Below, one piece after another: positions 767 through 25,200 of a stretch of 59,006 bases of DNA. The notes under the pieces were generated by a model. That model was not told where the DNA came from. It worked only from the letters and a program-made list of their open reading frames with translations, and searched no databases. The DNA lies in IMG/VR virus record IMGVR_UViG_3300025770_000022, positions 1 to 59,006 of that record. The stretch is one strand, 5' to 3'. Position 1 is the first letter of the stretch; each line of letters opens with the position of its first letter. This stretch comes from a virus. A program made the position numbers and the translations under genes.

Positions 767-3700
767 TTATACTTCCCAAACATCTTTGAGTGTAATAATA
801 CCCCTCATATTCTCAAGGTTGCCATCGTATCTACTAGAAGTGTAAAGTAATGACGCAGGAGTTCCTAGTGTCCAAGATTGAGTTTTGAATGACCAAGAGT
901 CGTTCAGCGTGTGTCCGTTTGGATTCTCGAACTGAATCATAATACCATTCTTGTAGTTAGTACCAGCAGTGTTATTTGCAGAGAATTCAGAATCATTCGT
1001 ATTGCCCTCTGGTCCAAACAATGCTAAGTCTACATTGACATTATTAATAGATGCGCCTTGCAATAGAACTGGGCCAGCAACAATTATGACAGGAGTCTTA
1101 TATGCAGTTCCAGGATTAGTGAATTCGATAGATGAAACATTACCATTCAATCCTAATACTACCGTTCCTTCTGCCCCGTAACCAGTTGGTTCTGCGTGTT
1201 CATCTACAACAATGACTCGTGTTTCGCCAGGAACATAATCTGCCCAATCTTCGACAATCGTTCCAGCCCCGATACCATTATTAAGAGATACACTTCCTAC
1301 AAAACCACTTCCGACTGATTTAGTGCTTGAGCCAACTAGGCCACCAGCATCTGAAACTACAATCATCGGTTCGTCATAGTTAGTTCCACGTGTAGTTAAT
1401 ACAATGTCAGTTACTACGTTATTAAGGTCTTGAGTAAGAACTGCGCCTGAACCAGTATCTAATGGGTCATTGATAGTAAACTCAACATCGACATAATTAG
1501 AACCCGGTTTAACAACAGTTATTGAAACAATTTCACCAATCGTAATTGGTGCAGTCCAAGTACCTGAACCAGCAACACACGTTGCTTCGTCTGAGAATGC
1601 AACATCTGAACAAGAACCTGGTACTGCTTCAGTAGTTAGAACTGGTCGAACAATTGCACCTGAACCATATAGAGTACCAGTCATATTGCCTGTGATATCA
1701 TACTGCGGAGTTCCCGTAGGGTCCATCACAACGATTTTAGTTTCTGGTGAGTATCCTGTACCACGATTGGCTACACCAACAGAGGCAATAGAACGATTAG
1801 TTTCTACAGTTGCGTATGCTCCTTCTCCTGGCCCAGATACATCAACTATGTTCACTATATCAGTAAGTGTATATCCTTGTCCAGGTCTGTCTACAGCAAT
1901 ATTGATAATTGTTCCTGCGGCATCGACTGTAGCAAGTCCTCGAACTCCTCCACCAGTAGGTGAATTGATATCAACAAAAACGCTATTATCACGTACCCAA
2001 AGGGTTGCTTTAATGTTTGTGTCATTATCATCATAGAGGTCATACTTATCTGTGATTTCACATTCTTTAGTAATTACGTATGTGAAAACAGCATTCTGAG
2101 GTACGTCACCAGAATCAAACATCCCACCTGCGTGAGTAATTGTATGTGCTTGAATATCTAAGTTTGTAAACTCTAGAGTATCTCCAACATTAGCAGAGAT
2201 AATAGATGGAACAAAAGCGTTGTTCTGAATATCGACACTTACTGTTTTAGCAGTAGTATCCGTATATCCTGTACCAGCGACTGATACTGCGAATCCAGCA
2301 ATTCCGCCGTCAACTAGTGACATTGAAGTTGCGGCTGCCACAGTAGGAGTTCCACCTGTAATTGCAACACTGTCAGCGACAACATAATCTGCTCCGCCAT
2401 CTGTAATTGTTACAAAATCTACACTGTCATCTTCTTTAAGAGTAACATATCCAGCCGCAAGTCCACCAGTTGAAGTGGTGAAAGTAAGCGTGATAGTAGG
2501 ATTAACAATGTGAGTAGTAACTTCCCTTGGATGAACGTGAGCACCGTTTGTTGCAGTGAATTCAAATGATTGATTGAATACGTTCCAAGATACTGTTTGG
2601 TCGTGAGTGTGACCCGCATCAACCGTAGTTGATAGAACAGGAGTTCCCGATTTAATAAGATTAACTTCAGTCTGGGTTAGATGAACTGTATGAGTATGTC
2701 CATCTCCACCTGGTACTGCGGCAACCGCTACTTCATAGTATCCAGTATATCCTGCACCAGGAGTTTCAACTTTAACTTCTTCTACCATTCCATCTTTCAA
2801 TGTGAATGAAGAAACCGCTTTAGTTTCTACTGAGCCCGCTACATCAACTGCTCCCTTATCAAATGCTCGTACTGAAGTATTTGCTGACCATTTAGTACCA
2901 CCGTTTGTGATTACGACATCTGAAACACCATCATCATAAACTGCGTTAAGTATTGCTCCAGTTCCTTGTTTTCCATTTGCATCAACTGTGTATGCGTAAG
3001 AATCAATAAATCCAGAGTCATCATTGATGAACACTTTATAAATTAGTCCGTCTGATAATTCTTTTACGTATGATTCGCCTGAAATATTATACTCATAAGA
3101 ACGTGTAAAATCGTCAAGTAGTGCGACAATTGGGTCAAAATATTCTTCACAAGTAGTAGGAGTATCATAACTTCCACCAGAACCATCGATATCCGATGCG
3201 TTGTGCATTGCAGTCACGCCCCAACCAGTCACTGAACTTGTAGCATCGTGACAATAAGATTGGAAAGGCTTGAATAGAACTGTATCGTAATGTTCTGCAA
3301 AGTTTCCTGTTACACCATTATTGTAAACAGTATTACCAGTAATGTCTGTAATTTTGACATAATCTCCACTGTCAACTCCACCAAACATAAGTGCGGCATC
3401 TGCGCCACGTCTTAGAATAAGTTCTGGGTTGTCTGTGTCTGGGATAGAAGTGTTATTAAGAATAGTTAAGTCTACTGCAGGGTCACCATTAATTTCGTGT
3501 CCCGTTGCTCTGAATGTAGTAACTCCACCAACTGTGGTATTCTTGTTAATATCATATGCTTTAATCTTAGTAACTGAGGTAGAACCTGTAGCCGTTTCAA
3601 TATCAAGTTTTAAGTGATGTTGGAATGGTCGTGGCTCTCCTACAATCTGCATACTTTCACCAAATGATACAATTGCACCAGATGTTGGATTATATGAAAT

Positions 3701-4351
3701 GTGGTGAGTCTTATTAGGACCCTCTTCAGCAAACGTAATATTACCTTCTGCATTGTAGAGATAATCAGTAAATCCGATTTCTCTAGTCATCGTGACTTCA
3801 GAAAGTAGAGTATTCGTTTGATGGATAGAATATCCAGAATCGGCTGCGCCAGAAGTATATTGCGATAAGTTCGCAAGCATATCTGCTAGTGCTTGAGCAA
3901 TAATAGAATCCTGATACGCAACGTGACCAGTATAATCAGTCGTTAATTGCGATAGGCTGTTTGTTAAATTCGTTTCAAGAGTATTAGCGTGATTTGATAG
4001 AACATTTCCTGCATCATTGGCCCAAGGGACGAATGTTGCATTGACGAATCCTTGAACCTCATCGTTCATATAGGTTTCTACAGCGTTCATAGCCGTATTT
4101 GTTCTAACAACTACCTCATTCTTGAAGGTATTCTGTTGATTTTCTAAAGGAGTTGAGATATTATCATTCAACCAGTTCTTCATTGATGCGGCCATCGCAT
4201 TCAACTTAGTCGGTATCATAACCGCTGGTGTATTTGTGTATATCTCTACTTCTTCGGTAAACGCCGTGACATCGACACTATCAAATGTAATATCTGGTAT
4301 GTCATTGAACGGGTCAACCGCAGTAGTTATGCTTGATAGTGTTACGGACAT
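767..4351 (-). CDS. Large virion structural protein (1194 aa) with GxGY repeats, His-triad module and degenerate cupredoxin domain
   Basis: Repeated (I/V)x(V/I)xxPGxGY motifs typical of T4-like baseplate/fibre proteins; GHTH..GHTH..AHVH module; NNAFVP..VGDTLEFTNLDIQAHTIT cupredoxin-like segment. Confidence 0.8.
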   Translation of the reverse strand: MSVTLSSITTAVDPFNDIPDITFDSVDVTAFTEEVEIYTNTPAVMIPTKLNAMAASMKNWLNDNISTPLENQQNTFKNEVVVRTNTAMNAVETYMNDEVQGFVNATFVPWANDAGNVLSNHANTLETNLTNSLSQLTTDYTGHVAYQDSIIAQALADMLANLSQYTSGAADSGYSIHQTNTLLSEVTMTREIGFTDYLYNAEGNITFAEEGPNKTHHISYNPTSGAIVSFGESMQIVGEPRPFQHHLKLDIETATGSTSVTKIKAYDINKNTTVGGVTTFRATGHEINGDPAVDLTILNNTSIPDTDNPELILRRGADAALMFGGVDSGDYVKITDITGNTVYNNGVTGNFAEHYDTVLFKPFQSYCHDATSSVTGWGVTAMHNASDIDGSGGSYDTPTTCEEYFDPIVALLDDFTRSYEYNISGESYVKELSDGLIYKVFINDDSGFIDSYAYTVDANGKQGTGAILNAVYDDGVSDVVITNGGTKWSANTSVRAFDKGAVDVAGSVETKAVSSFTLKDGMVEEVKVETPGAGYTGYYEVAVAAVPGGDGHTHTVHLTQTEVNLIKSGTPVLSTTVDAGHTHDQTVSWNVFNQSFEFTATNGAHVHPREVTTHIVNPTITLTFTTSTGGLAAGYVTLKEDDSVDFVTITDGGADYVVADSVAITGGTPTVAAATSMSLVDGGIAGFAVSVAGTGYTDTTAKTVSVDIQNNAFVPSIISANVGDTLEFTNLDIQAHTITHAGGMFDSGDVPQNAVFTYVITKECEITDKYDLYDDNDTNIKATLWVRDNSVFVDINSPTGGGVRGLATVDAAGTIINIAVDRPGQGYTLTDIVNIVDVSGPGEGAYATVETNRSIASVGVANRGTGYSPETKIVVMDPTGTPQYDITGNMTGTLYGSGAIVRPVLTTEAVPGSCSDVAFSDEATCVAGSGTWTAPITIGEIVSITVVKPGSNYVDVEFTINDPLDTGSGAVLTQDLNNVVTDIVLTTRGTNYDEPMIVVSDAGGLVGSSTKSVGSGFVGSVSLNNGIGAGTIVEDWADYVPGETRVIVVDEHAEPTGYGAEGTVVLGLNGNVSSIEFTNPGTAYKTPVIIVAGPVLLQGASINNVNVDLALFGPEGNTNDSEFSANNTAGTNYKNGIMIQFENPNGHTLNDSWSFKTQSWTLGTPASLLYTSSRYDGNLENMRGIITLKDVWEV

Positions 4352-4385
4352 TGTATTTTATCTCCAAAATTGTATTCTTCTGATA

Positions 4386-4393
4386 TATTTATA
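4386..4393 (-). promoter_or_regulatory. T4-type late promoter TATAAATA
   Basis: Exact motif in the intergenic gap upstream of the 4351 start. Confidence 0.7.
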
Positions 4394-4421
4394 AGAACTA
4401 AATTCATAATCATATCGTATA

Positions 4422-7400
4422 TTATGGAATCACTAGAGAAGATACTTCTCTAAATTGAGTTCCGTCTGCGTTTTCAACTATTACATCATATGTTCCAGAA
4501 GCCAGTCCACCTTGGTCATCGACCATTGCCAGATTATTAACATCTGTGAACTGGTAACTTGGACTATTTGCCACTGGTCCTGTACCCGGAGTGCTAGTAA
4601 GTTCTACCCACACTACAGTACCATTTCCACCAGATACAAATCCTGCTCCAAGTATAAACCAATTAGACGGGTCTATCTCCGTGACCGATATGATTCTTAA
4701 TGTATCTCTAACATTGAATAAGGTTGGAGCAGTTGCGGTATCTCCATCAGTATTTGTAATTATAAACTCTTGGTCTCCAAGTGGAGTTAGAGGATTGATA
4801 ACAAAATTAACTTTAGTAGGCAACAAGACTGCTTGTGAAACCTGTTCGACTCCACCGAGTGTGATTGTCCATAATGGGTCAATACCATCACCAACTACTT
4901 CGACTGTATCTCCCGCCATTGCTGAGACTACTGTAGTATCCCAAGTTCCTCTTGGTGCAATACATTCTGCTTCAGTCGTGAAGTTAGCATCAGAACAATG
5001 TGCTGGAACTTCAGGAGTCCAAGTGCCTCTTGGTGCGATACAAGTTGCTTCAGTCGTATATGAAACGTCAGTACAAGTACCTGGGGTCCAAGTATTATTC
5101 GCTGAAGTCCAAGTATTATTCGCTGAAGTCCACGTACCTGCATTATTTTCACAAGATACTTGGTCATAGTAAGAACCGATAGAACAAGTTCCCTGAGCCA
5201 GACAGTTAGTTTCGTTATTGTTATATACTGGATTAGAACAAGTTCCTTCCATTATACAATCTGCTTCAGTATTATTTGCCGATGCTGAACAACTTCCTGC
5301 AGTCCAAGTTCCGAATGGTTCTACACAACCTGCTTCAGTAGTATAAATTCCATCAGAACAGAATTCTGTTGCGAGTCCCGTCCAAGCACCGTTTATTGTT
5401 TCACAATCTACAGAGTTGTAGTATAATGGATTAGAACAAGATGGGGTTATTGCCGATACTGCTCTATTACCAAACTCAATACTCATAGTGGAAATCATAA
5501 TTGGTGGATTAAGAATTTCATTAGAACGCTTGTTAACGTCATAGTAATCTTCAACTACAGATTCTCCGAATGATTCAAGAGTACGCATTCCAGCGATTGG
5601 CTGTCCAACGTAATCTGCATTCTTCATATCAAGATGGTTGTTTGCCCATCGCTCTTCTCCTCCGATTGGAACTCCGAAGACGTTCATTGAACGTGCTAAC
5701 AATAGATACTCATCAGATGAAAGATTAGGAACAGATTTTACTGAGATGTTATCCCAATAAGTGAATCCATTTCCAGTAGTTGAAAGAGTTAAGAATGCGT
5801 TACCCGTAACAGGTGCAGTAAAGATAAAGTCTTTAGAGCCGTCTGTGTCGTTCGCCGCAATCACCATACTTCCATACGCATCTGAATCAGGCGTAGGACC
5901 AATCTTAACGATTGAATCAGTAGGTCTATCAATATCGAATGATACTTTATAATTCAATTTATCAGTAACTTCAAAACTAATATGTGCAATACCTCTTGCA
6001 GAAGTACCGACACCAGATGTATATATTTGTTGAGTATTTTGATTTACATAAGCCTCTGCACCTTGCTGAGGTGAGAATGTCCATTTCTCTTCGATTTCTC
6101 TAACAGAAACATCATCAATACTTCCTTGAAATCCCGTATTAGTATAATAAGGACTATAATTTTCAGGTCGATTATTATCTACAGTAGATATGAAGTGAAT
6201 TTTGCTATCCGCAGAACCCGCTCTAACGTGATGTGTACGTTGTCCGCTTGGAACAAGTCCAGTTGTATCAGCATCAAGAACTGGGATATCTTCTTCGTGT
6301 AATGATACAGAATTGATTAATCCAGTTCCATTCATTCGTAGAACAAACTGGTCACTGGCTTCACCTATCAAATCGAGATGATGAATACCAGATGTAGTAA
6401 TCGTTTTCTGAAGAACTCCGCCAATCAAGATTTCAATTGATGGGTTATTAGCAGATGTTCCAATCAATGCTAGTGTCTCGTGTCCTTCAGGAATAGTTTG
6501 ACTAACTAGAATATAACTTCCAGTATCATAACTAATAGTGAATTCGTGAGTATATGTATCAGCGTGATAGGCATCAGTCTGAGGGAATGTTCTTGTGCGA
6601 GTTGCATCAGCCATCAACCAATCAGCATCAACCTGTGTAATCTGGAATTGATGTGAGTGACTTCCGTTAGGACCAGGCCCAACTTGGAAAGTAAGAATAT
6701 TATGTGTCTCAAGAACACAATCTAATGTAGTCTCGTAACTAGAGTTTTTGACTAAATTATTCTCTAGAGTATATGTCATTGTTCCATTTACAGAAGAGTT
6801 AAAGTTCATCACTGCATTAGTAATTGAAACATCAACACCCGAAGCAGTCCAATTGATTTGAAGTGGGTCTACTATATCAAGATTCCAGTTAGCAATCTTA
6901 TGAGTAGTATCACTACCAAGAGCAACTCTTAATCGCCCAGTCATTCCATTATCACTTGGGTCCATATCTGCTAAGGTATACTTAACTTCATATAGTTTGC
7001 CAGGAGTAAATACTACTGTCTGATTAATCTCAGTATCAGATAAAATAGTTCCGTCAAGATACGCTTTACCGTTGATTGACTGCCATCCTTCACCCATATA
7101 CCAAGCATTCTGTCCAGTAACACGTTCTCTGATTGATATATTATCAATCTTACCTATTCCCGTGTTAGACAATCTCAGTATTGCAGTATTATTAGGAGCG
7201 ACTACAGTTTCAGAATAATGTCCTACTAGTGTATTTGCAGTTCCGACAATCGTTGTATCGCCCATCAAGGATGCTGTAAGTGTTCCATTCTCTGCGCCGA
7301 ATACATCTTTAAACGACTCAATAATATCATATTGAATTTCGTAAGTGATTCCGTCTTGAACTGTTCCAGTAACAAGTTGTTCGATATGAGCGGCAGTGCC

Positions 7401-10400
7401 ATCAGTTGTATGTGCAGTACCACCGTTTACTTCCCAAGAACCTGTCTCTGTCCAAACAACTTCTTTGAATGAAACATTGTCGAGTAGAATATTTGAACGC
7501 TGATTAATATCAACACTCATATAAACTTTAGCAAGTCCCTCGTGGTTATTTGTTACAAGGAATTGCTCTGAATTAGCACCTTTTATCATTGTAACTGGGT
7601 CAATATATTGGATAGTACCAAGTTCAATATTCATTGCTTGAATCTTAGGTAGTGCTCCTAATCCAGTTGCTGTTACTAGATTTCCAAGTTGTAACAAGTC
7701 TGCTTGAGTTCCCGCTACTGGGAACGCATTTGCAGGTTCTGGTTGTACTTGGAAGTAATCATTTCCTGTTCCGTTGTCTATTTGAATTTTATCTTTAATG
7801 TGTAATGGAGTGTACATATTTTCTTGACCGTGATGATAATAAACTACGATATCATCTCCAGCATTAACTACTGGAATGTCAATAATATTGAATGTACCAA
7901 CCATAGATGCGTGCCAACCACACTGATAATACAGTGTGTCTGGTGCAACTGAAGGTACAGTAAATTCTACAATCTCATACTTAGGAACTCCTGCGGCATC
8001 TAGTCCGAATTTAGAACCTGGGTCAGTTTGAACCCCTGCTCCTTCTTCTCCTCTAGAACCCGTGACACCCAATAGATACTCACCGAAGTAAGCGCCTGGG
8101 GTAAAGTGACTTCCGTCATCAGTAGTTATATAGAATGGATGACCAGGTGCGTTGACTCTAAATCTATAAGTAGCACCTCGGTATAAGTTAAGAGTTCTGT
8201 TTGTTCCCTCAATCATTCCTTCTTTATCAAATTTGTATAGTCCGCCATCATCTTCTACTGCGTAGTAGAGATTAGTTTCTCCTGGCGGTACGAATGGCCC
8301 AAATCCAGATACTCCATCAGCACCTGTTAGACCGAAATCTTCTGGGATTTTCCAAGTAAATTCTTTCGAGAAGTTACCAATCCATTGTGACACTCTCCAT
8401 TGTGCTAGTCCAACATCTTCATTTGGATTTAATGCGGTACATACTGAGTAGTCATCGACTCCATTGTAATACCAACCAGTTACATCTAGTTCTTCACACC
8501 ATCCACTCAATCCCATACAAACTGGGAATGGTTGGTCTGAAACCCAAGTTCCTGGGTTATCCTCAAGAGATACAAAGTCGTTTAGAGCCCCAGTTTCAAT
8601 GGTTAATCCGTGACTTGCGTTTTTATTAACACAATGATAGCCCTCATTTGGTTCGCCTAAGCCTCGTGTCATACCCGCTTGAACTAGGTTATCCCAGCCT
8701 CCACCAGGTATTGCTTTAATACCAGCGGCGTGCATATACATATCTTGCATTACACCAGTGAATGGGTCAGGAGCAGTAACGTGTCCTGAAGAACTCCAAG
8801 CATTATTTACAAATGTATATTTACCACCACGGAATAAGTCGAATCCTCCTGCTGTTCCTTCGTTACCACCGAATGCTTCGTGTTCTGCAATGTCTCTTTG
8901 ATAAGGATAGTAAGAGATGTTTGACATATCGTGCCAAGACCAGAACCAAGGAGAATCTTGTGCTCCTTCAACTGTAGTCTGGCCAGGGTCAGCGGCTGTA
9001 ATAGTAGATTGTGTATCGACAATAATTTCAAATCCGTCTGTGGGTCCGTAACCATCGCCAAGTGCAACAACTGTATGGTTCATCATTGCGCCAGGTAATT
9101 CAGTAGGCGTATATGGTTGTGGTCCAGATGGTAACTGAACAACATCACCAACTGATAATGCGTGATTGACTGATTTAACAGTTCTTGGTCGAGACCATAG
9201 AACTTCTACACCAGAGATGAACGGGTCACCAACGTGGTTAGTTAAATCTCGTTCAACTTCGTATCTAAAGGATGCCATATCAGCAACAACTTCATAACTC
9301 TCAATAACATTGAAGAAAGTTGGAGTAGTTCCTGGCGCATTCTCTAGAGGATAAATTACTGTTTCAGTTAATGCAAAGTGGTCCCAATCGATAACATAGT
9401 CAACAAAGTAATTTGTATTACCGTGATGAATTCCGTTATATACGTTAGTATAGTGTATCTTGTCGCCTGCTTTAAGTTGGTGTCCGTCTGATTCAATACC
9501 ACGTTCTTTCTTAACATATCCTGCGATATCTGTGAAAGGCGTTGCGATTGTAGAAGGATTCAAATCATCGCCACCTAAAGCGAAATCATATTTTCCAACT
9601 GTGAATTGACTTGACCCAGGATAGTATACTCTATCAAAATCGTGAATATGTTGGTCAATCGAAATAATTAAATATGTGTCATTTGCAGGGTCGATACATC
9701 CAAATTCTACTGTATGGAAATGCTGTGGGTCAGAAGTTCCGTAATTGGAAGTTCCAATCTTAGTTGCTCCGCCCGTATGACTCCAAGTTCCATCAGTGTC
9801 TTGTGTGACTCCAGTTAATGGACTTGCTTTTAGTGTCGCTTCGTCTGTTATGTCAAGGAGCAATTGATGATAATGACCAAAGTTAGTCAATTCAATATTA
9901 GTTCCGCCTTCGATAACATAGTATTCAGACATACCGTGAGTATGTGAGCCAGTCATTCCAACTATATACATTCCACCAGCACCATTGTTTAGTGCAGGGT
10001 CCCAGTTATATGTAACAGAGTGAGCGTGAGGAGAGTTATCTCCAGAGCCAGTTCCGTCTGTCGTTGACATTGAAATTACGTTTGTGCCTGTTTGAATAGT
10101 AGCGTATTCGGCAGTTGTGAGTTCACCAGTGTGTATGTGTCCGATAACATTAACGTCATCAAAGAATACATCGACTCGTGCATCACCTTTTTGTACTGCG
10201 GTGATAATATAATCTTCCCATTTACGCTCTCCAACTCCAACTACTGCTCCGCCACCCGTTGTGCTTCCGCCTGAACCATAACCAGTACCGCCTTGTTCTA
10301 GAGTAAGTGAAGTAATACTACCATCAACTGAGCCTGTTGCTAAAGCATTGACTGTTGGTGAACCACCAACAAATGTAACAGCAGGTGGGCCAGTATATTC

Positions 10401-12134
10401 AGAACCCGCATTCGTTATTGTTACTGTATCAACAAATCCAGTAGCATCAATCGTACAAGTCGCTTCGGCTTGAATCGCAGTTCCACCATCAGCAACTAAT
10501 ACTCCGAATGGAGCAGAAATAGATATAGTAGGAACAGATTGATAACCAGTTCCAGGTTCGTCTATAACAATACCCGTGACTGAAGCATCAAATCCTATAG
10601 TGCCAGTTGCACCAGCACCACCTCCGCCAGAGATATACATTGTCGGGATGTTTGTGTATTGAGAACCACCACTATTTAATGTCAATGCTGTTACTACACC
10701 ACCAACAACTGTCGCATCTGCCGAAGCATTTACTGTATTAGAATCATTACCACCTTGGAAGGTGATAACAACTGGAACAGTAGCATTCGGGTCAGTTTCA
10801 ACGTCACCAGACTGAAATGATACTAAGTCAGTAAGTGAAAGGTCGTGATAAAGTGATTCTACTACGTTTTGTGAGCCTGCTCCACCAATTGAGGTACAGA
10901 GTTGAGGCATTATCTGGCTAATATTATAAGAATTAGATAGTGCAGGTAAGGCTACATTAGCGCCATAGTTAATAGGAATCTTGATTGTATCGCCGGGGTT
11001 TAGTCCGTGATTCAATGAATAAACAAATCTGTGGTTAGTCGTACTGGACAATCTTCCTTCTTCGAGCGGGTGAAAAGTACAGTGAAAATATAAATCGTGA
11101 TATCCATCTACTACCCAAGCCCACTGTTCACCAGGTGAAAGGTCAGGAGAAGCAAAGGATATATTATCATCAGAAACAGCATTGTGAACCAATATGTTTG
11201 TATCTGGATTATTAAATATGATTGTGTCGCCTTCTCTCGCTTCGAGATGGTAAGGGACAAGAATATGTGTTTGTGTGTTCGGGTCGTTAATTGCGCCTTC
11301 GAACCAGTGACCGCCTGTACTTGTACAAGCAGTTTCCATTGCGACAATTGAAGTCAGATATTCTGGTGTGATTACTGTCCAAGTCTCGCCAACACCTTCA
11401 CAAGTTGCTTGGTCAGAGATTGAAGGATTATTAGAACAACTGCTACAAGTAGGACGAACTAGAAGTTCGTCTTCTATTACAGAAGCAACAAATGTTCTTG
11501 GGGCTGGTCCACCACCAACTTCTGAGAAAGTCGCTGTATCAGGAGCAAGCATATCGACCATATTTTTAGCACCTGAAATAAGGTCCCAGTTAACATCATT
11601 AACTGTAAGGTCGTATGAAAATTTGTATTGAGTATTTGGTTTAAGATTTGCTTCAAACCAAGCAAGAGCAACCTGTTGACCATCGGTGTAAGCATCAACA
11701 ATCTGAGTTCCCTCAGTAAAGAACCTGTCGAATTGGTATGCAATACCATTCGCCCAAGGACTTGCTACGTTAATTGGTTCATCAAAACCACTATTCTTGA
11801 GCAATTCAACTTCAAACGCATCTGCGGCAAAAGAACTATTTTGAACAAGGTTAGAGGATTCATATGTTATATCGAGACCACCATTCTCAATCATTTCTGT
11901 TGGTGATACGAATTGTTGTGAACGGCCTGCGACATTAATTAGAAAATCTTTATATTCTGGCAAATGTTCTAGGTTTTCCATTACCTCTAAAGACTTCAGC
12001 ATAAGAGCCAAATCCTTAACAAGAAGGTCAGGAGCATCCAATTTAATGTTCAAAGAGTCCAAGAAGGAACTCTTCTGTTGCTCTATAGTGTTTAATTCTA
12101 ATAGACTGAATTTGTGACCTGTATAATGTGCCAT
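4422..12134 (-). CDS. Giant multidomain virion/fibre protein (2570 aa): CBM-like beta-sandwiches, two cupredoxins, His-triad modules, Cys repeats, C-terminal IPT/TIG-like domains
   Basis: HNAV..HCTFHPLEEG and GHPF..YYQCGWHASM cupredoxin motifs; L(L/V)xN(S/G)xF...YxxSYD CBM-like segments; multiple HxH; CSxxxYxxxxxCxxxxGTWT repeats. Confidence 0.8.
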   Translation of the reverse strand: MAHYTGHKFSLLELNTIEQQKSSFLDSLNIKLDAPDLLVKDLALMLKSLEVMENLEHLPEYKDFLINVAGRSQQFVSPTEMIENGGLDITYESSNLVQNSSFAADAFEVELLKNSGFDEPINVASPWANGIAYQFDRFFTEGTQIVDAYTDGQQVALAWFEANLKPNTQYKFSYDLTVNDVNWDLISGAKNMVDMLAPDTATFSEVGGGPAPRTFVASVIEDELLVRPTCSSCSNNPSISDQATCEGVGETWTVITPEYLTSIVAMETACTSTGGHWFEGAINDPNTQTHILVPYHLEAREGDTIIFNNPDTNILVHNAVSDDNISFASPDLSPGEQWAWVVDGYHDLYFHCTFHPLEEGRLSSTTNHRFVYSLNHGLNPGDTIKIPINYGANVALPALSNSYNISQIMPQLCTSIGGAGSQNVVESLYHDLSLTDLVSFQSGDVETDPNATVPVVITFQGGNDSNTVNASADATVVGGVVTALTLNSGGSQYTNIPTMYISGGGGAGATGTIGFDASVTGIVIDEPGTGYQSVPTISISAPFGVLVADGGTAIQAEATCTIDATGFVDTVTITNAGSEYTGPPAVTFVGGSPTVNALATGSVDGSITSLTLEQGGTGYGSGGSTTGGGAVVGVGERKWEDYIITAVQKGDARVDVFFDDVNVIGHIHTGELTTAEYATIQTGTNVISMSTTDGTGSGDNSPHAHSVTYNWDPALNNGAGGMYIVGMTGSHTHGMSEYYVIEGGTNIELTNFGHYHQLLLDITDEATLKASPLTGVTQDTDGTWSHTGGATKIGTSNYGTSDPQHFHTVEFGCIDPANDTYLIISIDQHIHDFDRVYYPGSSQFTVGKYDFALGGDDLNPSTIATPFTDIAGYVKKERGIESDGHQLKAGDKIHYTNVYNGIHHGNTNYFVDYVIDWDHFALTETVIYPLENAPGTTPTFFNVIESYEVVADMASFRYEVERDLTNHVGDPFISGVEVLWSRPRTVKSVNHALSVGDVVQLPSGPQPYTPTELPGAMMNHTVVALGDGYGPTDGFEIIVDTQSTITAADPGQTTVEGAQDSPWFWSWHDMSNISYYPYQRDIAEHEAFGGNEGTAGGFDLFRGGKYTFVNNAWSSSGHVTAPDPFTGVMQDMYMHAAGIKAIPGGGWDNLVQAGMTRGLGEPNEGYHCVNKNASHGLTIETGALNDFVSLEDNPGTWVSDQPFPVCMGLSGWCEELDVTGWYYNGVDDYSVCTALNPNEDVGLAQWRVSQWIGNFSKEFTWKIPEDFGLTGADGVSGFGPFVPPGETNLYYAVEDDGGLYKFDKEGMIEGTNRTLNLYRGATYRFRVNAPGHPFYITTDDGSHFTPGAYFGEYLLGVTGSRGEEGAGVQTDPGSKFGLDAAGVPKYEIVEFTVPSVAPDTLYYQCGWHASMVGTFNIIDIPVVNAGDDIVVYYHHGQENMYTPLHIKDKIQIDNGTGNDYFQVQPEPANAFPVAGTQADLLQLGNLVTATGLGALPKIQAMNIELGTIQYIDPVTMIKGANSEQFLVTNNHEGLAKVYMSVDINQRSNILLDNVSFKEVVWTETGSWEVNGGTAHTTDGTAAHIEQLVTGTVQDGITYEIQYDIIESFKDVFGAENGTLTASLMGDTTIVGTANTLVGHYSETVVAPNNTAILRLSNTGIGKIDNISIRERVTGQNAWYMGEGWQSINGKAYLDGTILSDTEINQTVVFTPGKLYEVKYTLADMDPSDNGMTGRLRVALGSDTTHKIANWNLDIVDPLQINWTASGVDVSITNAVMNFNSSVNGTMTYTLENNLVKNSSYETTLDCVLETHNILTFQVGPGPNGSHSHQFQITQVDADWLMADATRTRTFPQTDAYHADTYTHEFTISYDTGSYILVSQTIPEGHETLALIGTSANNPSIEILIGGVLQKTITTSGIHHLDLIGEASDQFVLRMNGTGLINSVSLHEEDIPVLDADTTGLVPSGQRTHHVRAGSADSKIHFISTVDNNRPENYSPYYTNTGFQGSIDDVSVREIEEKWTFSPQQGAEAYVNQNTQQIYTSGVGTSARGIAHISFEVTDKLNYKVSFDIDRPTDSIVKIGPTPDSDAYGSMVIAANDTDGSKDFIFTAPVTGNAFLTLSTTGNGFTYWDNISVKSVPNLSSDEYLLLARSMNVFGVPIGGEERWANNHLDMKNADYVGQPIAGMRTLESFGESVVEDYYDVNKRSNEILNPPIMISTMSIEFGNRAVSAITPSCSNPLYYNSVDCETINGAWTGLATEFCSDGIYTTEAGCVEPFGTWTAGSCSASANNTEADCIMEGTCSNPVYNNNETNCLAQGTCSIGSYYDQVSCENNAGTWTSANNTWTSANNTWTPGTCTDVSYTTEATCIAPRGTWTPEVPAHCSDANFTTEAECIAPRGTWDTTVVSAMAGDTVEVVGDGIDPLWTITLGGVEQVSQAVLLPTKVNFVINPLTPLGDQEFIITNTDGDTATAPTLFNVRDTLRIISVTEIDPSNWFILGAGFVSGGNGTVVWVELTSTPGTGPVANSPSYQFTDVNNLAMVDDQGGLASGTYDVIVENADGTQFREVSSLVIP
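5086..5132. repeat. 21-bp tandem repeat (2 exact copies + 5 bp) encoding TWTSANN
   Basis: gtccaagtattattcgctgaa at 5086-5106 and 5107-5127, then gtcca. Confidence 0.95.
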
Positions 12135-12155
12135 TTTTATATTATTTCCTATAAA

Positions 12156-12353
12156 TTATTCGGACGCTAGTTCGCTGGTGTAGTTCAACTGCATAGAGGT
12201 GGTAACATACGGGTCACTAACTCCTAACATTTCAAATTCTTGCATCCTAACAAAATTATTTTGCTGTTGAATCATTATGTTGGTACGTTCACGCCACGTT
12301 TTGAAGGTTTCATCCTTTCTTACGTACGGTATAGTTGTGGTTCCAGTTGCCAT
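12156..12353 (-). CDS. Small virion protein with a fibre N-terminal-like motif (DETFKTWRERTN)
   Basis: 65-aa ORF tightly packed in the structural operon; motif resembles the DTFxxWRxxTN start of T4-like fibre proteins. Confidence 0.6.
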   Translation of the reverse strand: MATGTTTIPYVRKDETFKTWRERTNIMIQQQNNFVRMQEFEMLGVSDPYVTTSMQLNYTSELASE

Positions 12354-18021: not shown

Positions 18022-18109
18022 TCGCTATTATCCTAAATATGTTCCTATCATCTTTAATGTTCCCTCCCCACTTTTGGAGAGAGAACATATATAACATCCT
18101 AAAGTATTC

Positions 18110-19120
18110 TTAGAATTCTACTACGAGTTTCAAATCCTCAATCTGGTCAGATGCACGAGTAATAGCACGCCTGTTCTCAAGATAAATCAACTGTCCACTA
18201 TCGCTTTCTAAACTTACGTCTGCATCAGCATATACGGATGCTTGGGCTTTCGTTCCGCCACCAGCAAGTTCTGGATTACGCAAGAGTCCGATTTGTCGAA
18301 AGTCATCGTTCTCTGGGAATCCGTCTGAAGTCTCAAGTCTAACGTGAATCAATCCGTGGTGAGTTTTCGCTGTAAATATAGAATCTACATCACCGAAATC
18401 GGCCTGCTCAGACCCTGCAAGAACTCCTGTACCTGAAATAACTGGCATCCAGTCATTGGTAGTAGAGTTAATAATGTCGTTCAATTCTAGTTTATATAAG
18501 AATGTCCACGTATAGTTGTCAGATGTAGTAATCGCTTGAGCAACTAGTCCAGCGGCATCTCCAGTAAAGCCAGTTGGCTCTTCAGAAGCACCAGTAGGTA
18601 ACCAAAGTCCACCTAAAGTACCTTCACAAGTTGTTCGTGAAACAGCAGTTCCGCCATCAAAGACTCCACCAATATAGCATTTTCCGCCAGATGGTTCGCC
18701 TGTACACATATAAACTCGATATTCAGAATTCATCACAATACTGTGACTTCCGATTTTTGAAACAAAAGAACGGCCAGGTTCATCAATTCCTGTGATGCCG
18801 TTTGCGGCATCTCCGTCAAATGCGATAGTATCACCTGTTTCCCAGTTAATACGTGGAAGCACGGGTGAGATATCATCATTCTGAATTCGCTTGGTACCAA
18901 CAATGTCAGTCCAATATTGTGATTCATCCTCATCAAGAGGGTCAGGTAGAGTAAAGTTACCTGAACTTTCGTCATTTCCTTGAGCATCATTAGGCCAAGC
19001 GTCATTTCGCCCAAACCCTAGATACAGGAAGTTGTCGTCAACAGAACCAGTAGTTTTGAACTGGTCGATGAAAACCATCAAGTTCTGTGTTCTGAATTTA
19101 CTGGTTACAATTGCACCCAT
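18110..19120 (-). CDS. gp8: Baseplate wedge subunit
   Basis: AIVTSKFRTQN..YLGFGRNDAW..WTFLYKL..FRQIGLLRNP..IYLENRRAITRASDQIEDLKLVVEF. Confidence 0.9.
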   Translation of the reverse strand: MGAIVTSKFRTQNLMVFIDQFKTTGSVDDNFLYLGFGRNDAWPNDAQGNDESSGNFTLPDPLDEDESQYWTDIVGTKRIQNDDISPVLPRINWETGDTIAFDGDAANGITGIDEPGRSFVSKIGSHSIVMNSEYRVYMCTGEPSGGKCYIGGVFDGGTAVSRTTCEGTLGGLWLPTGASEEPTGFTGDAAGLVAQAITTSDNYTWTFLYKLELNDIINSTTNDWMPVISGTGVLAGSEQADFGDVDSIFTAKTHHGLIHVRLETSDGFPENDDFRQIGLLRNPELAGGGTKAQASVYADADVSLESDSGQLIYLENRRAITRASDQIEDLKLVVEF

Positions 19121-19174
19121 TTTACTAACTCCTTAAATTATTATGTTCTGCTATCATTTGATATTTATCAGAAC

Positions 19175-19182
19175 TATTTATA
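19175..19182 (-). promoter_or_regulatory. T4-type late promoter TATAAATA
   Basis: Exact motif between gp7-like and gp8. Confidence 0.65.
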
Positions 19183-19210
19183 CGTTTGTTTAATTAAAAT
19201 ATTCACAACT

Positions 19211-22200
19211 TTATGCCGGTACTGGCCATACGTTGCTATCGTCTACAGTAGTAGAGTGGACGTGGTCGCCCGCTCCAGAGCCCTGTGTGTTTTGTGACCA
19301 CTGACCACCAATTGGAACACTTCCCAAATATGATATTGTATCGTGGTTGTCATAGTCACTTGTTTGTGATATAATGTTATAAGTAGAACCATTCCACTCT
19401 AATACTAATTCGTGAGTGTATACGGCCGCGTGTGTACTATCTCTCTGTGGTGTAGTTACATAAGTTCCACCAATCAAGGATGTATAATCTGCAACACTTA
19501 TCCAGTAATCGTGGTCGTGGAATCCACCAGTTAGAGAGAATTTATGCACATATGTAGATGTTCCTGGTATAATATCCCATTGTGAAATACCAGCAACTAC
19601 AAATGTTCCCTTTGCTCCCATATTGGGATTAAATTTTATCGTATATCCGTGATAGTGGGAACTTGCTCCGTTTGGAGAATCAAAGAATATAATACCATAG
19701 TTGGCATTCTGAGCATTAATCAAATCATTTGCTTGTGCCAAAGTAATTGGTTCACACGTTCTTCCGACATTAACTCCCGCTGAATCCAAAGAGCATCCAT
19801 CATAAAGCAGGTGGTCGTGACTTCCGATACCAGCAATAAACGATGGTTGCATCTGAACAATGGGCGGGTTGTTTGCCTGAAGGACATTATTTACATAAGT
19901 TTTTCTTTCCGTTAAGTCTTCCACTTCGGAAGTTGTTTGACTTGTCGTAACTTCAGACGTAATAACTGGGTCACCAACCGATGTTTCAGTACCATAATCT
20001 GAATAGTATATAATATCAGTCGTGGTCGTTGTAATCTGGACCGTTGACGTTGTTGTCGTTGTGATTAAATCACTATATGTTACGATAATAGTTGTATCAC
20101 CAGTCGCAGGCGTATCTGGATACGTTGTTGTGACTGGTAGTAATTCGGTTGAAGCCTGCGTAACAACAACACTCGGTGCCGCAGAAAGAACTTCATCAGT
20201 TGATGTAGTCTTCGTTATATATATGCTACCACCAGTTTGCTGTGGTATTGCAACTAGATTTGGATTCCAGTCAATTGTCAAGTTATGCCAGTGAAGTCCT
20301 TCAGCCGCATTCTCAACTACAGATACATAATATTTAGTAGGGTCTTGAAGTGAATCTTCAATGCCACCTTTAATCCAAGTCACTGACCAATCAGCATAGA
20401 ATATATTATAATTAGTATCCCATTTAATTCTGTACTCGTGAAAGTGAGCACCCTCAATTGAATCGTAAATAGTAACACTATCTACAACACCATCAATCAG
20501 TTGCATACCTTGGTCAATCGTCATTCCGTGAGCGTAAGAAATCTGTCCAGTCAAAGCCCCTTCTGCAAATGGTCCCACAACTGTATCATTATGAAAGTGA
20601 GGGTGAGAACCACCTGGATAAGGATATCCAGGAGAAGCAAATGTCGGTAGAATTTCCATCATCTCATTATAACCTGGTCGTGAAAACAGATTAGAGATGT
20701 TCGTTGGATGTGCGTGTGACCTTGGGTCTGCGGAATAGAATTGATGTCCGTCAGATGATTCCCATTTCTCAGTATCTAACGCAACGAAACTTAATGTATT
20801 TGGGTCGTATGTAATTGTGATTCCGTGATAATGGTCTCCGCCTGAGATAGATGTATATGTTTTTACTTCAGTCACTTCACCATTAATCAAATCAGTTGCT
20901 TGATTATCATCTAATGGTAATGCTTGTCTGCCAGTGTGTGTTCCGAGAGTGTCTAATGTTGTTCCGTTAAATGCGTGTAGATGGTCTGGTTCAGAGCCTT
21001 CTAATTTATGCCAATCGTGTGCATTTGATAATGTAACATCAGGAGCAGTATACAATGGTGTACCATTCCAACCAAGATGGGTCGTTATACCATTAACTAA
21101 AAGGGTATGCTCGTGAGTTCGTAGATGTGTATCTACTGCTTCCCATTCTCCAGTACTGTTTTCATCCCACATCTCAGCCATTTCGTCTGCAACAAATTGT
21201 TGCGTAGAAAGATTCCACATAATTTTATATACGTGATAATGTTGATGCTGGCCAGAATCTTCAATAGAAGAATAAACATAAAATGCGTTTACTACTCCAT
21301 TAGCAAGTTCTTCTGCTTGTATTCTCGTAATCGGTACAGCCGTTCTACCATCATTAGCACCAAATGTATCTAGTGTCTCACTATTGAAATAGTGGATGTG
21401 AGCGTTCTCGCCATATTCGTTTGCTCCAAGTATCTCTACTACGGGAGCAGTCTCAATATAAAATGTTCCGTCATCATCGTCATCATCGACAGCAAGATAA
21501 GGCGTATCAGAGCCTGTGTCGTATGGTTCCCAAACTAGAGTTAGAGGATTCAAATGCCATCCAGCAGATGAACCAAGAAGAATATTTTCATCTACTATTC
21601 CAGTCCACGAAGTAATTACAGGATGCAAGTGAGAGACAGGAGTATTATAAGTCCATATAGGGAAGAAAGCATCCCAGTCAGTCATTTCAATATCAGATAT
21701 CTCAGTTGCAGAGAATAATTCTGTGTTAATGTCGTATACTACTTTATATCCGTGAACGTGAGCCGTTTCAGAAGCAGGGATTTGTGAAGATGCACCCGTT
21801 TCTGTAGAGGAATCATATGTATCAGTTAGTTTGTATATATCACAATTCTGTGGGCCAGTTCCTTGATAACTATCAATACCAATTCTTGTAGCCATATAAA
21901 GTTCGCCATTAGTGTCTTCACCTAATGTCAATACAGATTGGTCGTGAGTTGTTAAGTTCAATACAGATGTTGCAGGGTCCCAGAAAGATAAATTCTTTCT
22001 TGTATATCCTACATCGCCATTGTATTCGATAAATGTGAATACATCGTGGTTCTCCATATTCGTTTGTGCTATCAGATTCCAAGTATTGAAAGTCGCATTC
22101 CATATAATGGAGAATGTGTGAGTATAACTTTCAGCGTGAACCGTATCACTCTGAACAACAACAATTGGTGTTCCAGGATTCGCTTGAGCCATCGCAACTT

Positions 22201-25200
22201 GACTCGGAGTTAATATAGCCTCGTGACTATGATTTGCTCCATTGATTGCATTAGGAGTTATTGTGAAGTGTGCAGAAAGTCCATCAGGATTTTCTTCTAG
22301 TGAAAAGAGATGACCAGTAGTACCAGCCCAACTCGTACTCCAATCTCCGAATATGTATTTGCCTTGAAGTCCAGTTAAGTCACTTCCCCTATAGATGAAT
22401 CCACCTAAGATAGAAATACCAGTTCCGTGACTGTACTCGTGAATAGGTGATTTTAAATCAAGAAGAAATGCTTGAGTATTTGCATAGCCTTGGTCTAATG
22501 CCATTTGGTCAATAGTTGCTTGGTCTTCTTCAAAGTAATGATATGCTTCCATTACTCTCCAACCATAGTTGCCGCCCTTTTCGATAATGTTTACTTCTTC
22601 AAATTTATTTTGTCCAACATCAGCCGCCCATAGTTTACCATCTGGAGCAAAAGAGAATCTCCAAGGATTTCTTAATCCGTATGCCCATATCTCTTCTCTA
22701 AACATTGCACCCGCAGTACCGTGTGGTTTTGCATTTACACCAGTGAAGGGGTTATCGGAAGGTATGGAATAAGGTTTATTATTAACTGTGTCTGGTGCGA
22801 CATCAATTCTAAGAATTGTGCCCAATATGTTAGTAGGGTTCTGTGCATTACCATATACTCCGTGTCCGCCGTGACCGCTAGAACTCGAAGTATCTCCCGC
22901 ATTTCCGCCGTCACCGAATCCGATATAGAGATAACCATCTGGGCCAAATACTAATTGACCACCGTTATGATTCATATCAGGTTGTGGCTGTGTGATTAAA
23001 ATTCGTTCAGTAGTAATATCAACTGTCTCTGCCGCAACGTCAGCCGTGAACTCAGCAATGATTGAAGTTGAAAGAGGATATCCGTATGAGCCAGTAGATG
23101 GACCTTGCTCTGTCATATAATAGACATACAAGAGTCCGTTTGTTGCGTAATCTGGATGGAATGCAAGTCCTAGAGCGCCACGTTCATCATATGCACCGAA
23201 TGGCCCGACTCCGATAGTCAGATTAAGAGAAGTGTAGTCGAAAAATAATGATTTGACACCAGACGTAGTATCCATCAAGTGAATGATTCCAGATTGGTCT
23301 ACAATACAGATTTTATCTGGGTCCATCGGATACGCTACAATAGTCGCAATGTCTGTGCCTGTACCCATCTTAACATCCCCTAGTAAATCTCCAGTATCAC
23401 CAGAGCCAGGAACTTGTTGAATATAGTTAGATGAATATAATTCTACCCAGTCTACATTAGGTACTAGCGTAGCAGGGAAAGTCTGTGCGTGTTGGAATGT
23501 AAATGATGCTTCACCAATTGCAGTAGCAACCGTGGCATCATCAAGTTCATTGAATACATTCTGTCCGAGATTCATTGTGTTACCAGAATAATCAACACCG
23601 TCAATTAAACTAGGGTCAACCACAAGTTCTGGTTTATAGTTATAACATATCCACGTAGTAACTGGCGTATATCTAAATCCGTGCGTACAAGGATTACCCA
23701 TAAAGTCAGTATTCATTTCCCAGTCTGATTCGTATGTGACTAGGTACTCGTGATAATGTGCAGAGGTAATTCCATTTGAATCGGCTACCGTACCGCCTTG
23801 GAAGACGCCATTTTCATCTGTCTCAGGGACCCCGTTGGTAGTTATTCCGATACTATCGTAAAGAGTTACGTCTGTGATATCTCCGTCAATTAATTTTCTT
23901 GCATCGGCTCTTGATAGAGGGTCAGATACACGACCACGTTGTCTGTCTACAATTTGACCATCTACAAATCTATGAACGTGACCCGTTGCTTCAGGCAAGA
24001 ATGCAGTCGTATGAACATCTGCAAGGAATTCTGGAATTTCAAAAGCATCAGAATTCATTAATGCTCTTGCTTGAGAATAACTTAGTCCGTGAGCCGTTGC
24101 TTCTTTTCCGTGAACCATTAAATTAGGTATTGCACTTCCATCAAAACTATGAACGTGAAACGCTGCCGCTCCAACACTCATCAATGGAAGTTCAAGTCCT
24201 TTAGTAAGACTTGTAGATACTAGTGGTGCGAAACCATTCTTTCTTCCGTGGGAATGGATTACATTAGGGTTATCAAACGCCTGTATCTGAACCGCATCAA
24301 TAACGTCATTTGTATTCCCGTATACTTTTTTAACTAGTGTGTCTTCTCGACCACTCTCGAATGCGCCGTAACTCTTTTCAGGAGCGTATTCGGCTTCTTG
24401 CATAAACGATTCAACCCATTCAACAACTCTAGAAAGATGTTTGAATACGGACAATTCATAAACGTCACAAGAAATCATTCTACCGTCTGTGGTATTCTCT
24501 AGATTATCCTCAATGCCTAATTCAGTAACAGAAGGTGGGAACTCTTCAATAGGTAGAACTCGGAGAAGATTAGTAAATTCAAATACAACCTTCTCAGGCC
24601 AAGCATTAATCTGGTTCTTGATTTCATCACGGAGAATATTAATTTGATAGAGTTTCTCTGTAAGTTTGGTACCAATAGTCTTGATTTCATTTTTATCAGT
24701 TACTATATCAACCCCTACGTGTTCACCAGGAGCACCCCAATTATCAGGAGTTACTAAGGCAGCCCTTGAATCGAGATTACCCATCATTTCAATGATATAT
24801 TCGTCAAAGCCTTTCTCAATGAAGACTCCAAATCCAGTATGAGCCCTTCCGACTGAACCGTGTTGTTCGCTCTCTTGGTCCCAGATATCAACCGCGACAT
24901 CAAGATAAGAGAATATCGCAATAATCATCTTGACGTAATCGGTAGGTAATTCGATTACCAAATCAACTGTAGACCTAAACGAGAACTCAGCAAATAATTT
25001 CAGTCCAACAGGGTGAACTAGTTTTTTAAGAACTTCTCTATACGACTGAATAGGTACATCACTTCGGATAACATAAGAGAAATCTTGGTAGTAGTCATTA
25101 TCTTGGAGTTTTCTGTCAGAAGACAGGAAGCCGCCAGAGTCAAGCCAGTAACCATTTGTTTTCCAAACGGCCGTCTTGACATTAGGTTGAGTCTCGATAT

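What the first reader, a model, noticed from the sequence alone, without database searches (positions are those of the whole stretch)
2510..24260. Repeated His-triad (HxH...HxH...HxH) module shared by three giant baseplate/fibre proteins
A roughly 70-110 aa unit recurs once in the 1194-aa protein (2510-2705), at least three times in the 2570-aa protein (9630-10150, 6470-6670) and about ten times in gp7 (19230-24260, roughly twenty HxH by manual count). Its pattern is HxH + strand, a helix (LTxxE/QAxxLxxG), a strand, HxH + YxIxW/YD, then HxH. In T4 gp37, HxH motifs from three chains bind Fe on the trimer axis (established). Here three HxH within one module could form an intrachain His6 site, a monomeric version of that site, repeated many times per virion. 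I know of no named domain family for this repeat.
Basis: partly seen in the sequence, partly recalled or inferred. Interest (0 to 1): 0.85.

Follow-up and report, generated by a model that had tools for sequence, protein, structure and literature searches.

The report
Unnamed three-HxH histidine domain in phage baseplate
Three giant tail/baseplate proteins of an uncultured marine T4-like phage carry about a dozen copies of a small, previously unnamed protein domain whose conserved histidines look like a single-chain metal-binding site, which would load each virus particle with dozens of metal ions, though metal binding itself is still unproven.

Summary
The three minus-strand ORFs (767-4351, 4422-12134, 19211-26482) hold 3, 7 and 22 HxH motifs, against about 0.4, 1.7 and 3.5 expected. 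These motifs fall into 12 recognisable copies of one 65-120 aa module: 1, 3, and 8 plus 2 partial.

AlphaFold2 predicts a globular alpha+beta domain. No Pfam, NCBIfam, PHROG or PDB family matches it, and no solved fold does. It is unrelated to the T4 gp37, gp12 or gp10 sequences. It is also rare: 26 clusters among 1.84 billion representatives, mostly orthologues from marine metagenomes, plus a few other phage proteins and one bacterial lipoprotein-like protein.

Four histidines are invariant. Two further positions vary only in ligand-like ways: H to D/E, or H to Y with a new His four residues upstream. One copy is inserted in a beta-hairpin turn of a glucose/sorbosone dehydrogenase (GSDH) propeller, so the module's two ends must meet.

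My best reading is a single-chain metal clasp. I could not measure whether the histidines cluster in 3D, and neither metal binding nor the metal's identity is shown.

The scan holds one unchecked note of the same module in another genome (e1-5763070).

The parts
767..4351 (-). ORF P0001, 1194 aa virion protein carrying one module
   Evidence: Orthologues at 66-94% identity occur in marine metagenomes.
2507..2719 (-). Module in P0001 (aa 545-615), canonical HTH / HTH / HVH
   Evidence: AF2 model: pLDDT 72, with a helix and three strands.
4422..12134 (-). ORF P0002, 2570 aa virion protein carrying three modules
9915..10160 (-). P0002 module a (aa 659-740), HIH / HAH / HTH
9621..9896 (-). P0002 module b (aa 747-838), HYH / HFH / HIH
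6465..6680 (-). P0002 module c (aa 1819-1890), type II: HSH / H-x3-YTH / EGH
19211..26482 (-). ORF P0003, 2423 aa. It has a gp7-like baseplate wedge N-terminus, a GSDH propeller, and 8 full plus 2 partial modules.
   Evidence: Pfam PF23786 31.9 bits and PF07995 114.7 bits. PHROG 17744 E 2.6e-45.
23993..24277 (-). P0003 module a0 (aa 736-830), degenerate copy (HSH, HVH, helix; weak profile match)
   Evidence: domain E 11, so recognisable by eye only.
23678..24001 (-). P0003 module a (aa 828-935), long type, HVH / HYH / CTH
21803..23185 (-). GSDH (PQQ-type sugar dehydrogenase) propeller that hosts module b as an insertion
22037..22252 (-). P0003 module b (aa 1411-1482), type II, inserted in a hairpin turn of the last propeller blade
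21599..21781 (-). P0003 module c (aa 1568-1628), a partial copy with only the second and third motifs (HVH / HLH)
   Evidence: E 0.008.
21083..21421 (-). P0003 module d (aa 1688-1800), long type, HIH / HYH / HEH
20684..21004 (-). P0003 module e (aa 1827-1933), long type, HLH / HYH / HAH
   Evidence: AF2 model: pLDDT 78.8, pTM 0.72.
20261..20626 (-). P0003 module f (aa 1953-2074), long type, HPH / HFH / HWH
19493..19840 (-). P0003 module g (aa 2215-2330), long type, HDH / HYH / x-V-H
19328..19540 (-). P0003 module h (aa 2315-2385), type II, HDH / H-x3-YTH / DNH
19214..19270 (-). C-terminal remnant (G-D-HVH-STTVDD) resembling the second motif of a module
   Evidence: Read from the translation. 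Compare the HVH-STTITW motif of P0011.

Best explanation
The repeat is an autonomous, previously unnamed small alpha+beta domain. Its core is 65-75 aa; a long form of 105-125 aa adds two insertions. It serves as a decoration or inserted domain in the baseplate and fibre proteins of an uncultured marine T4-like myovirus lineage.

Each copy most likely binds one metal ion with ligands from a single chain:
- both His of the N-terminal HxH;
- the second His of the central HxH, at the start of the central beta-strand;
- one His of the C-terminal motif;
- two further positions that are usually His but can be Asp/Glu, or Tyr with a compensating His nearby.

On this reading the metal ties the N- and C-terminal arms to the central hairpin. 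That would be a structural clasp for an extracellular protein, playing the role that Fe or Zn plays on the trimer axis of T4 gp37 and gp12, but within one chain.

Shown here: the domain is real, conserved, unnamed and rare; its histidines are the most conserved residues; its two ends meet. Inferred: the histidines cluster, a metal is bound, and the metal's role is structural. Which metal (Fe, Zn, Ni, Mn or Cu) is open.

My sub-confidences are: real new domain family 0.9, metal-binding 0.65, one single-chain site per module 0.5.
For: (1) Recurrence far above chance, and only in these three ORFs.

(2) Conservation of His. In seven gp7 orthologues (59-80% identical), His is the most conserved residue type outside the propeller: mean 0.88, with 48 of 65 invariant, ahead of Trp and Gly.

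(3) Ligand positions. In 78 modules dereplicated at 70% identity, motif-1 His are 76/76 and 76/76, and the second His of motif 2 is 78/78. The first position of motif 2 is H (56) or Y (22), and Y always comes with a His four residues upstream. Motif 3 keeps at least one His in 74-77 of 78. All 22 type II copies have D/E two residues before that His. D/E-x-H also occurs in the unrelated members P0024, P0025 and P0029. By established knowledge, His-to-carboxylate exchange next to an invariant His is typical of metal ligands.

(4) The ends meet. Alignment with 30 free-standing GSDHs shows module b is a roughly 90-residue insertion in the turn of a beta-hairpin of the last propeller blade. Its N-terminal and C-terminal arms, which carry motifs 1 and 3, must therefore come together.

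(5) AF2 predicts a compact helix plus three-stranded sheet (pLDDT 72 and 79, pTM 0.58 and 0.72). The central HxH sits at the start of a strand, so both side chains point to one face. In long modules the extra residues lie between the His motifs and the core, leaving all three motifs intact.

(6) In T4, gp7 is present as one copy per wedge (established knowledge, T4 baseplate structures). A trimer-axis site is therefore unlikely for the gp7-like protein.

(7) The same three-motif domain is kept in very distant proteins at about 20-30% identity (P0011, P0012, P0013, P0016, P0019, P0023, P0026).
Against: No coordinates of the models were available, so His-His distances were not measured. In both AF2 models the C-terminal HxH arm has low confidence (pLDDT about 50-57), and part of the N-terminal arm is coil. 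The type II ligand swap arose once (one clade, support 0.93), so it is a single evolutionary event and not repeated covariation. Some copies have fewer candidate ligands: module a has C/L at one position in orthologues, module g has a single C-terminal His, and module c lacks motif 1. No known metal-binding fold was matched. No experiment exists.
Confidence: 0.55

Rival explanations
1. gp37-type inter-chain sites. Each HxH pairs with the same HxH of two other chains (or of two neighbouring modules acting as a pseudo-trimer) on a three-fold axis. The module would then be a fibre segment, not a self-contained site.
For: All solved phage HxH metal sites (T4 gp37, gp12, spike tips) lie on trimer axes (established knowledge; summarised in PMC11705849). 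P0023 has a tail-fibre-like N-terminus (PHROG 17885, E 3e-8). Language-model neighbours are tail-fibre clusters, but below the 0.9 mark. Three long modules (d, e, f) stand in tandem.
Against: There is no sequence relation to gp37, gp12 or gp10 (hhalign probability 0.1-0.2%), and no 2XGF hit in the PDB profile search. The predicted fold is globular with a helix, not an intertwined all-beta needle. One copy sits inside a hairpin loop of a monomeric propeller. Single isolated copies exist. T4 gp7 is one copy per wedge (established knowledge).
Confidence: 0.1
2. Not a metal site. The histidines form a hydrogen-bond or aromatic ladder, act as a pH sensor, or form a binding face for a host surface ligand (for example phosphate or sugar acids). 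On this reading the module is simply a structural or adhesin repeat.
For: No metal was shown. Some copies lack one or two of the six positions. Virion decoration domains are often adhesins. The C-terminal His arm is poorly ordered in the models.
Against: Four His are invariant across modules that otherwise share only 13-36% identity. The substitutions at the other two positions are H to D/E, or H to Y plus a new His, which is the pattern expected of ligands rather than of packing residues. HxH on a strand is a classic metal-binding geometry (established knowledge).
Confidence: 0.2
3. A catalytic or redox metal centre (Cu or Fe), not a structural clasp. It would work together with the cupredoxin-like domains and the PQQ-type dehydrogenase propeller in the same proteins, for example in oxidative attack on a host surface polymer or in electron transfer.
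For: The modules occur in the same proteins as a GSDH propeller and a weak cupredoxin-like match (E 0.0016, below the Pfam cut-off). One module is inserted directly into the propeller. HxH motifs bind Cu in multicopper oxidases and pMMO (established knowledge).
Against: The domain also occurs in distant proteins that lack these partner domains. Eight to ten copies in one chain fit a structural bead better than an active site. No fold similarity to cupredoxins or oxidases was found. Full hexa-coordination leaves no open site for a substrate.
Confidence: 0.1

Closest known systems
T4 gp37 long-tail-fibre needle (PDB 2XGF) and related HxH sites of gp12 and phage spike tips
   Same: Both have HxH motifs in a phage tail protein. 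The likely octahedral coordination is mostly by His, and the metal probably acts as a structural staple in an extracellular protein.
   Different: In gp37 each site is built from one HxH from each of three chains on the fibre axis, within an all-beta needle. Here three motifs lie in one 65-120 aa alpha+beta domain of one chain. There is no sequence relation (hhalign probability 0.1-0.2%). The host proteins include a gp7-like wedge protein, which is monomeric in T4.
Calprotectin (S100A8/S100A9) His6 site (from my own knowledge, not tested here)
   Same: It is a hexa-histidine site that includes an HxH in a flexible C-terminal tail which closes over the metal. It binds Mn, Fe, Ni and Zn tightly.
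   Different: The fold is unrelated (EF-hand heterodimer), the site lies at a subunit interface, and the function is host-defence metal sequestration.
HxH tail-fibre sites of marine phages proposed as iron carriers (Ferrojan Horse idea; Alteromonas phage R22Y, PMC11705849)
   Same: Marine phage tail proteins with several HxH motifs that could make virions a pool of bound trace metal.
   Different: Those proposals model trimer-axis sites in fibres, about 36-42 metals per virion. Here the unit is a discrete single-chain domain, with 42-54 copies from the gp7-like protein alone if six copies per baseplate holds.
Beta-propeller (Kelch/DPP4) blades
   Same: The central HxH-strand / D-P-x-T hairpin resembles a Kelch blade motif. 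There is a weak profile match to the designed Kelch protein SAKe6AE, and the best structural rows are DPP4 propeller blades (Z 4.4-4.7).
   Different: Every single stretch of the SAKe6AE match is insignificant (i-E 8 or more). The Z values are below what unrelated models typically reach. The module also has a helix that propeller blades lack.

Membership tests
T4 gp37-type HxH needle (2XGF) | Repeated HxH motifs | tested here: met
   3, 7 and 22 HxH in the three proteins.
T4 gp37-type HxH needle (2XGF) | Sequence homology to the gp37 needle/tip | tested here: not met
   hhalign of A3 against T4 gp37 gives probability 0.2%, with only a 9-column G-D-H-x-H match. The PDB profile search lists no 2XGF chain at E up to 10.
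T4 gp37-type HxH needle (2XGF) | All-beta intertwined trimeric fibre with one HxH per chain per site | tested here: not met
   AF2 predicts a compact helix-plus-sheet domain with three motifs per chain. One copy is inserted in a propeller hairpin. This rests on prediction, not a solved structure.
T4 gp37-type HxH needle (2XGF) | Metal ion bound by six His | not testable with these tools
   Needs metal analysis or a structure.
T4 gp12 / gp10 C-terminal head domains | Sequence homology | tested here: not met
   hhalign probability 0.1% (gp12) and 0.2% (gp10).
Any Pfam / NCBIfam / PHROG family covering the module | Profile match at or near the curated threshold | tested here: not met
   Whole proteins and isolated modules give only sub-threshold chance rows. 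Distant members likewise have none over the module.
Kelch / beta-propeller blade | Significant sequence or fold match to a blade | tested here: inconclusive
   The SAKe6AE whole-sequence E of 2e-10 sums six stretches, each with i-E of 8 or more. VIA Z is 4.7 or lower.
T4 gp7 baseplate wedge subunit (for the host protein P0003) | Match to baseplate wedge profiles, and position next to a gp6-like gene | tested here: met
   PF23786 scores 31.9 bits against a cut-off of 27. PHROG 17744 gives E 2.6e-45 over aa 12-236. The upstream ORF 26501-28261 matches gp6 / baseplate J genes of T4-like phages at about 35% identity.
GSDH (PF07995) propeller | Profile match above threshold, with the last blade completed after the insertion | tested here: met
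   114.7-119.2 bits. The C-terminal strands align after the module in a MAFFT alignment with 30 GSDHs.

The most novel reading that the evidence does not exclude
Each module is a self-contained single-chain octahedral metal site: four invariant His plus two tunable ligands. That would make it a monomeric counterpart of the trimer-axis HxH sites and the first domain family of its kind. With 8-10 copies in a six-copy baseplate protein, plus 4 more in two other virion proteins, one virion would carry roughly 50-100 or more metal ions. These oceanic phages would then be dense trace-metal carriers. The type II variant (His5 plus Asp/Glu, with a Tyr nearby) could be tuned to a different metal or oxidation state.
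Probability: 0.4. Interest if true: 0.75.

Novelty: new variant of a known kind. Interest (0 to 1): 0.62.

Why it matters
Metal-stapled HxH sites are so far known in phages only on the three-fold axes of fibres and spikes. A portable single-chain version would be a new small metal-binding domain of 65 aa. It tolerates insertion into other folds, so it could also interest protein engineers.

It would also raise the possible metal load of a marine virion well above the figures used in the debate on phages as carriers of oceanic iron or other trace metals. The orthologues come from open-ocean, partly mesopelagic, metagenomes, where such metals are scarce.

The idea is directly testable with one small recombinant protein.

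Tried and rejected
- Complex prediction with three copies of the P0001 module plus three Fe(II) scored 0.00 in both runs. This is no verdict and is not evidence either way.
- Fold searches of both AF2 models gave nothing above background. Foldseek against PDB had best E 0.55 and 0.43. VIA-align wide had best Z 3.8 and 4.7. BFVD had best E 0.13. ESM Atlas returned generic small alpha+beta models at TM 0.5-0.6. These blanks do not prove a new fold.
- The protein-atlas search gave only sub-0.9 leads to tail-fibre clusters.
- Sub-ranges of protein ids are not accepted by align_proteins, so distant multi-domain members could not be cut for the AF2 alignments.
- megablast and tblastn of the gp7-like C-terminal region against 50,697 GenBank phage records found no match.
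- The piece after module b alone gave no GSDH hit. The insertion was shown by alignment instead.
- HYR-like repeat proteins (P0009, P0010) and P0020 in the big search are partial chance matches and were excluded.
- Literature searches found HxH discussed only as trimer-axis fibre sites. No paper describes this domain.
Full report
**The observation.** The stretch holds four large minus-strand ORFs. Three of them carry 3, 7 and 22 HxH motifs: P0001 767-4351, P0002 4422-12134 and P0003 19211-26482. The fourth, 12583-18021, has none. Shuffling each protein 5000 times gives means of 0.42, 1.68 and 3.49 HxH, and the observed counts are reached in 47, 7 and 0 shuffles.

The motifs are organised. Hand-cut units align with each other. 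A profile of 11 units finds 12 matches in a six-frame search of the whole record, all inside the three ORFs. There is one unit in P0001 and three in P0002. P0003 has eight full units plus two partial or degenerate ones and a C-terminal remnant.

**Anatomy.** The core unit is 65-75 aa. It runs: G-x-HxH; about five residues; a helix with the signature T/S-x-x-E/Q-A-x-x-L-x-x-G; a strand; a turn; HxH-x3-I-x-W/Y starting a long strand; a tight hairpin; a return strand; then HxH. A long form of 105-125 aa (five copies in P0003) has one insertion between the first HxH and the helix and another between the last strand and the third HxH. All three motifs stay in place.

AlphaFold2 models were built with alignments of 46 and 57 module copies. 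They give a compact helix plus three-stranded antiparallel sheet. The short module has pLDDT 72.4 and pTM 0.58, with a helix at 16-23 and strands at 28-34, 37-46 and 51-56. The long module has pLDDT 78.8 and pTM 0.72. The central HxH opens the middle strand. The arm carrying the third HxH is modelled with low confidence.

**Conservation.** Twelve IMG/VR contigs and several metagenomic proteins encode orthologues of the gp7-like protein at 59-97% identity, with 22-24 HxH each. Outside the propeller, His is the most conserved residue type: mean 0.88, 48 of 65 invariant, ahead of Trp, Phe and Gly.

In 78 modules dereplicated at 70% identity:
- both His of motif 1 are present in 76 of 76;
- the second His of motif 2 is present in 78 of 78;
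- at least one His of motif 3 is present in 74-77 of 78;
- the first position of motif 2 is His in 56 and Tyr in 22.

Every Tyr copy has a His four residues upstream, which the His copies never have. All of these 'type II' copies also have Asp or Glu two residues before the motif-3 His, where type I copies have His. An ungapped comparison of P0001 with module b puts that acid exactly at the position of the first His of motif 3.

Type II copies form one clade (support 0.93). The swap therefore happened once and has since been kept at three positions in two proteins. D/E-x-H in place of HxH also occurs in the unrelated members P0024, P0025 and P0029. So the site has four invariant His plus two positions that change only in ligand-conservative ways.

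**The two ends meet.** I aligned P0003 aa 1090-1565 with 30 free-standing glucose/sorbosone dehydrogenases taken from a search that returned thousands. Module b, with short stalk strands on each side, replaces the tight turn between two strands of the last blade. The propeller sequence resumes afterwards. This confirms an earlier first-reader note (e1-5818359). A domain inserted in a hairpin turn must have its N- and C-termini side by side. That brings the arms carrying motifs 1 and 3 together, next to the hairpin end where motif 2 sits.

This is indirect support for a single-chain cluster. It is not a distance measurement, which I could not make because model coordinates are not exposed.

**What it is not.** None of the following searches gave a match:
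- Pfam, on whole proteins and on ten isolated modules;
- NCBIfam;
- PHROGs;
- Pfam on distant members.

A profile search of all PDB sequences returns only a designed Kelch protein. There, six individually insignificant stretches add up, driven by an H-T-H ... Y-D-P-x-T-x-W blade motif. Profile-profile comparison with T4 gp37, gp12 and gp10 gives probabilities of 0.1-0.2%. Fold searches of both models against PDB, BFVD and the ESM Atlas stay in the noise: best Z 4.7, best Foldseek E 0.13-0.55. The module is therefore not a member of the gp37-type needle family, although it may work like it.

**Distribution.** The profile matched only 26 of 1.84 billion 50%-identity representatives at E of 0.001 or less. 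A second, word-seeded search found 30 longer proteins, almost all orthologues of the three window proteins from marine metagenomes. These include Tara mesopelagic samples, and a few sources call them 'plastocyanin'. No GenBank phage record matches the module-rich part of the gp7-like protein.

The window itself is an IMG/VR record estimated 27% complete. Its gp6-like neighbour is only about 35% identical to those of pelagiphage, Methylophilales phage and cyanophage T4-likes.

Distant members keep all three motifs at 20-30% identity:
- small two-module proteins (P0011, P0013, P0015, P0026, P0027), one on a viral contig next to a virion structural gene;
- a 660-735 aa family (P0012, P0019, P0022, P0024), with P0012 located between the endolysin and terminase genes of an SU10-like phage contig;
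- P0023, with a tail-fibre-like N-terminus;
- P0016, a 1475-aa protein with three module copies on a 427-kb NCBI contig;
- P0030, a lipoprotein-like protein in a bacterial contig.

**Mechanism.** I read the domain as a single-chain metal clasp. The metal is held by the four invariant His and completed by two variable ligands, and it locks the terminal arms onto the central hairpin. This is the role that Fe and Zn play in T4 gp37 and gp12 (established; summarised in PMC11705849), but without needing a three-fold axis. That suits a gp7-like protein, which in T4 is present once per wedge (established knowledge).

With six copies per baseplate, the gp7-like protein alone would contribute 42-54 sites. 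The identity of the metal is open.

My confidence that the family is real and unnamed is about 0.9. That it binds metal is about 0.65. That each module forms one single-chain site is about 0.5.

Three rivals remain:
- trimer-axis or pseudo-trimer sites (0.1);
- a non-metal His ladder or adhesin face (0.2);
- a catalytic or redox centre linked to the propeller and the weak cupredoxin-like domains in the same proteins (0.1).

**Verdict.** HxH metal staples in phage tails are known, including in many earlier notes of this scan, all of the gp37 type. This one is a different, unnamed, single-chain domain, so I rate it a new variant of a known kind. One other genome in the scan carries a first-reader note of the same module (e1-5763070), which I did not check.

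Noticed in passing
window 21803-23185 (-): A PQQ-type glucose/sorbosone dehydrogenase propeller (PF07995, 115-119 bits) is built into the gp7-like baseplate protein. It is up to 53% identical to free-standing bacterial and archaeal GSDHs. I did not check whether its catalytic residues are intact.
   Followed up: partly
window 1982-2284 (-); also 11010-11297 and 7905-8282 (-): A cupredoxin-like stretch follows the module in P0001, but the Pfam match is weak (PF13473 E 0.0016, 18.9 bits, below the cut-off of 27). Some metagenome sources label P0001 orthologues 'plastocyanin'.
   Followed up: partly
window 4941-5438 and 1556-1612 (-): A second short repeat, C-x(5-12)-S/T-x(2-4)-C-x(3-8)-G/A-x-W, occurs four times near the C-terminus of P0002 and once in P0001 (example: C-S-D-x-x-F-T-T-E-A-E-C-I-A-P-R-G-T-W). 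It is probably a small disulfide-bonded knot or linker. It was not analysed further.
   Followed up: no
window 19511-19540 (-), P0003 aa 2315-2324: Modules g and h abut. The HDH that serves as the first motif of module h lies only seven residues after the single conserved C-terminal His of module g. The two putative sites would therefore be almost contiguous.
   Followed up: no
L016:6001-6897 (+), protein P0030: A bacterial lipoprotein-like 298-aa protein sits next to secA and holds three repeats of H-G-H ... H-D-H ... H-x-H with two short helices each. It is a distant or convergent relative of the module outside phages.
   Followed up: no
L014:8001-10208 (+), protein P0012: A 735-aa protein with two module copies lies between a GH108 endolysin gene and the terminase, adaptor and portal genes of an SU10-like phage contig. 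It has no family match at all.
   Followed up: no
whole window: Modules cluster in the tree by position in the protein, not by genome. The array is therefore old and each position is kept in all orthologues, rather than being a recent tandem amplification.
   Followed up: partly
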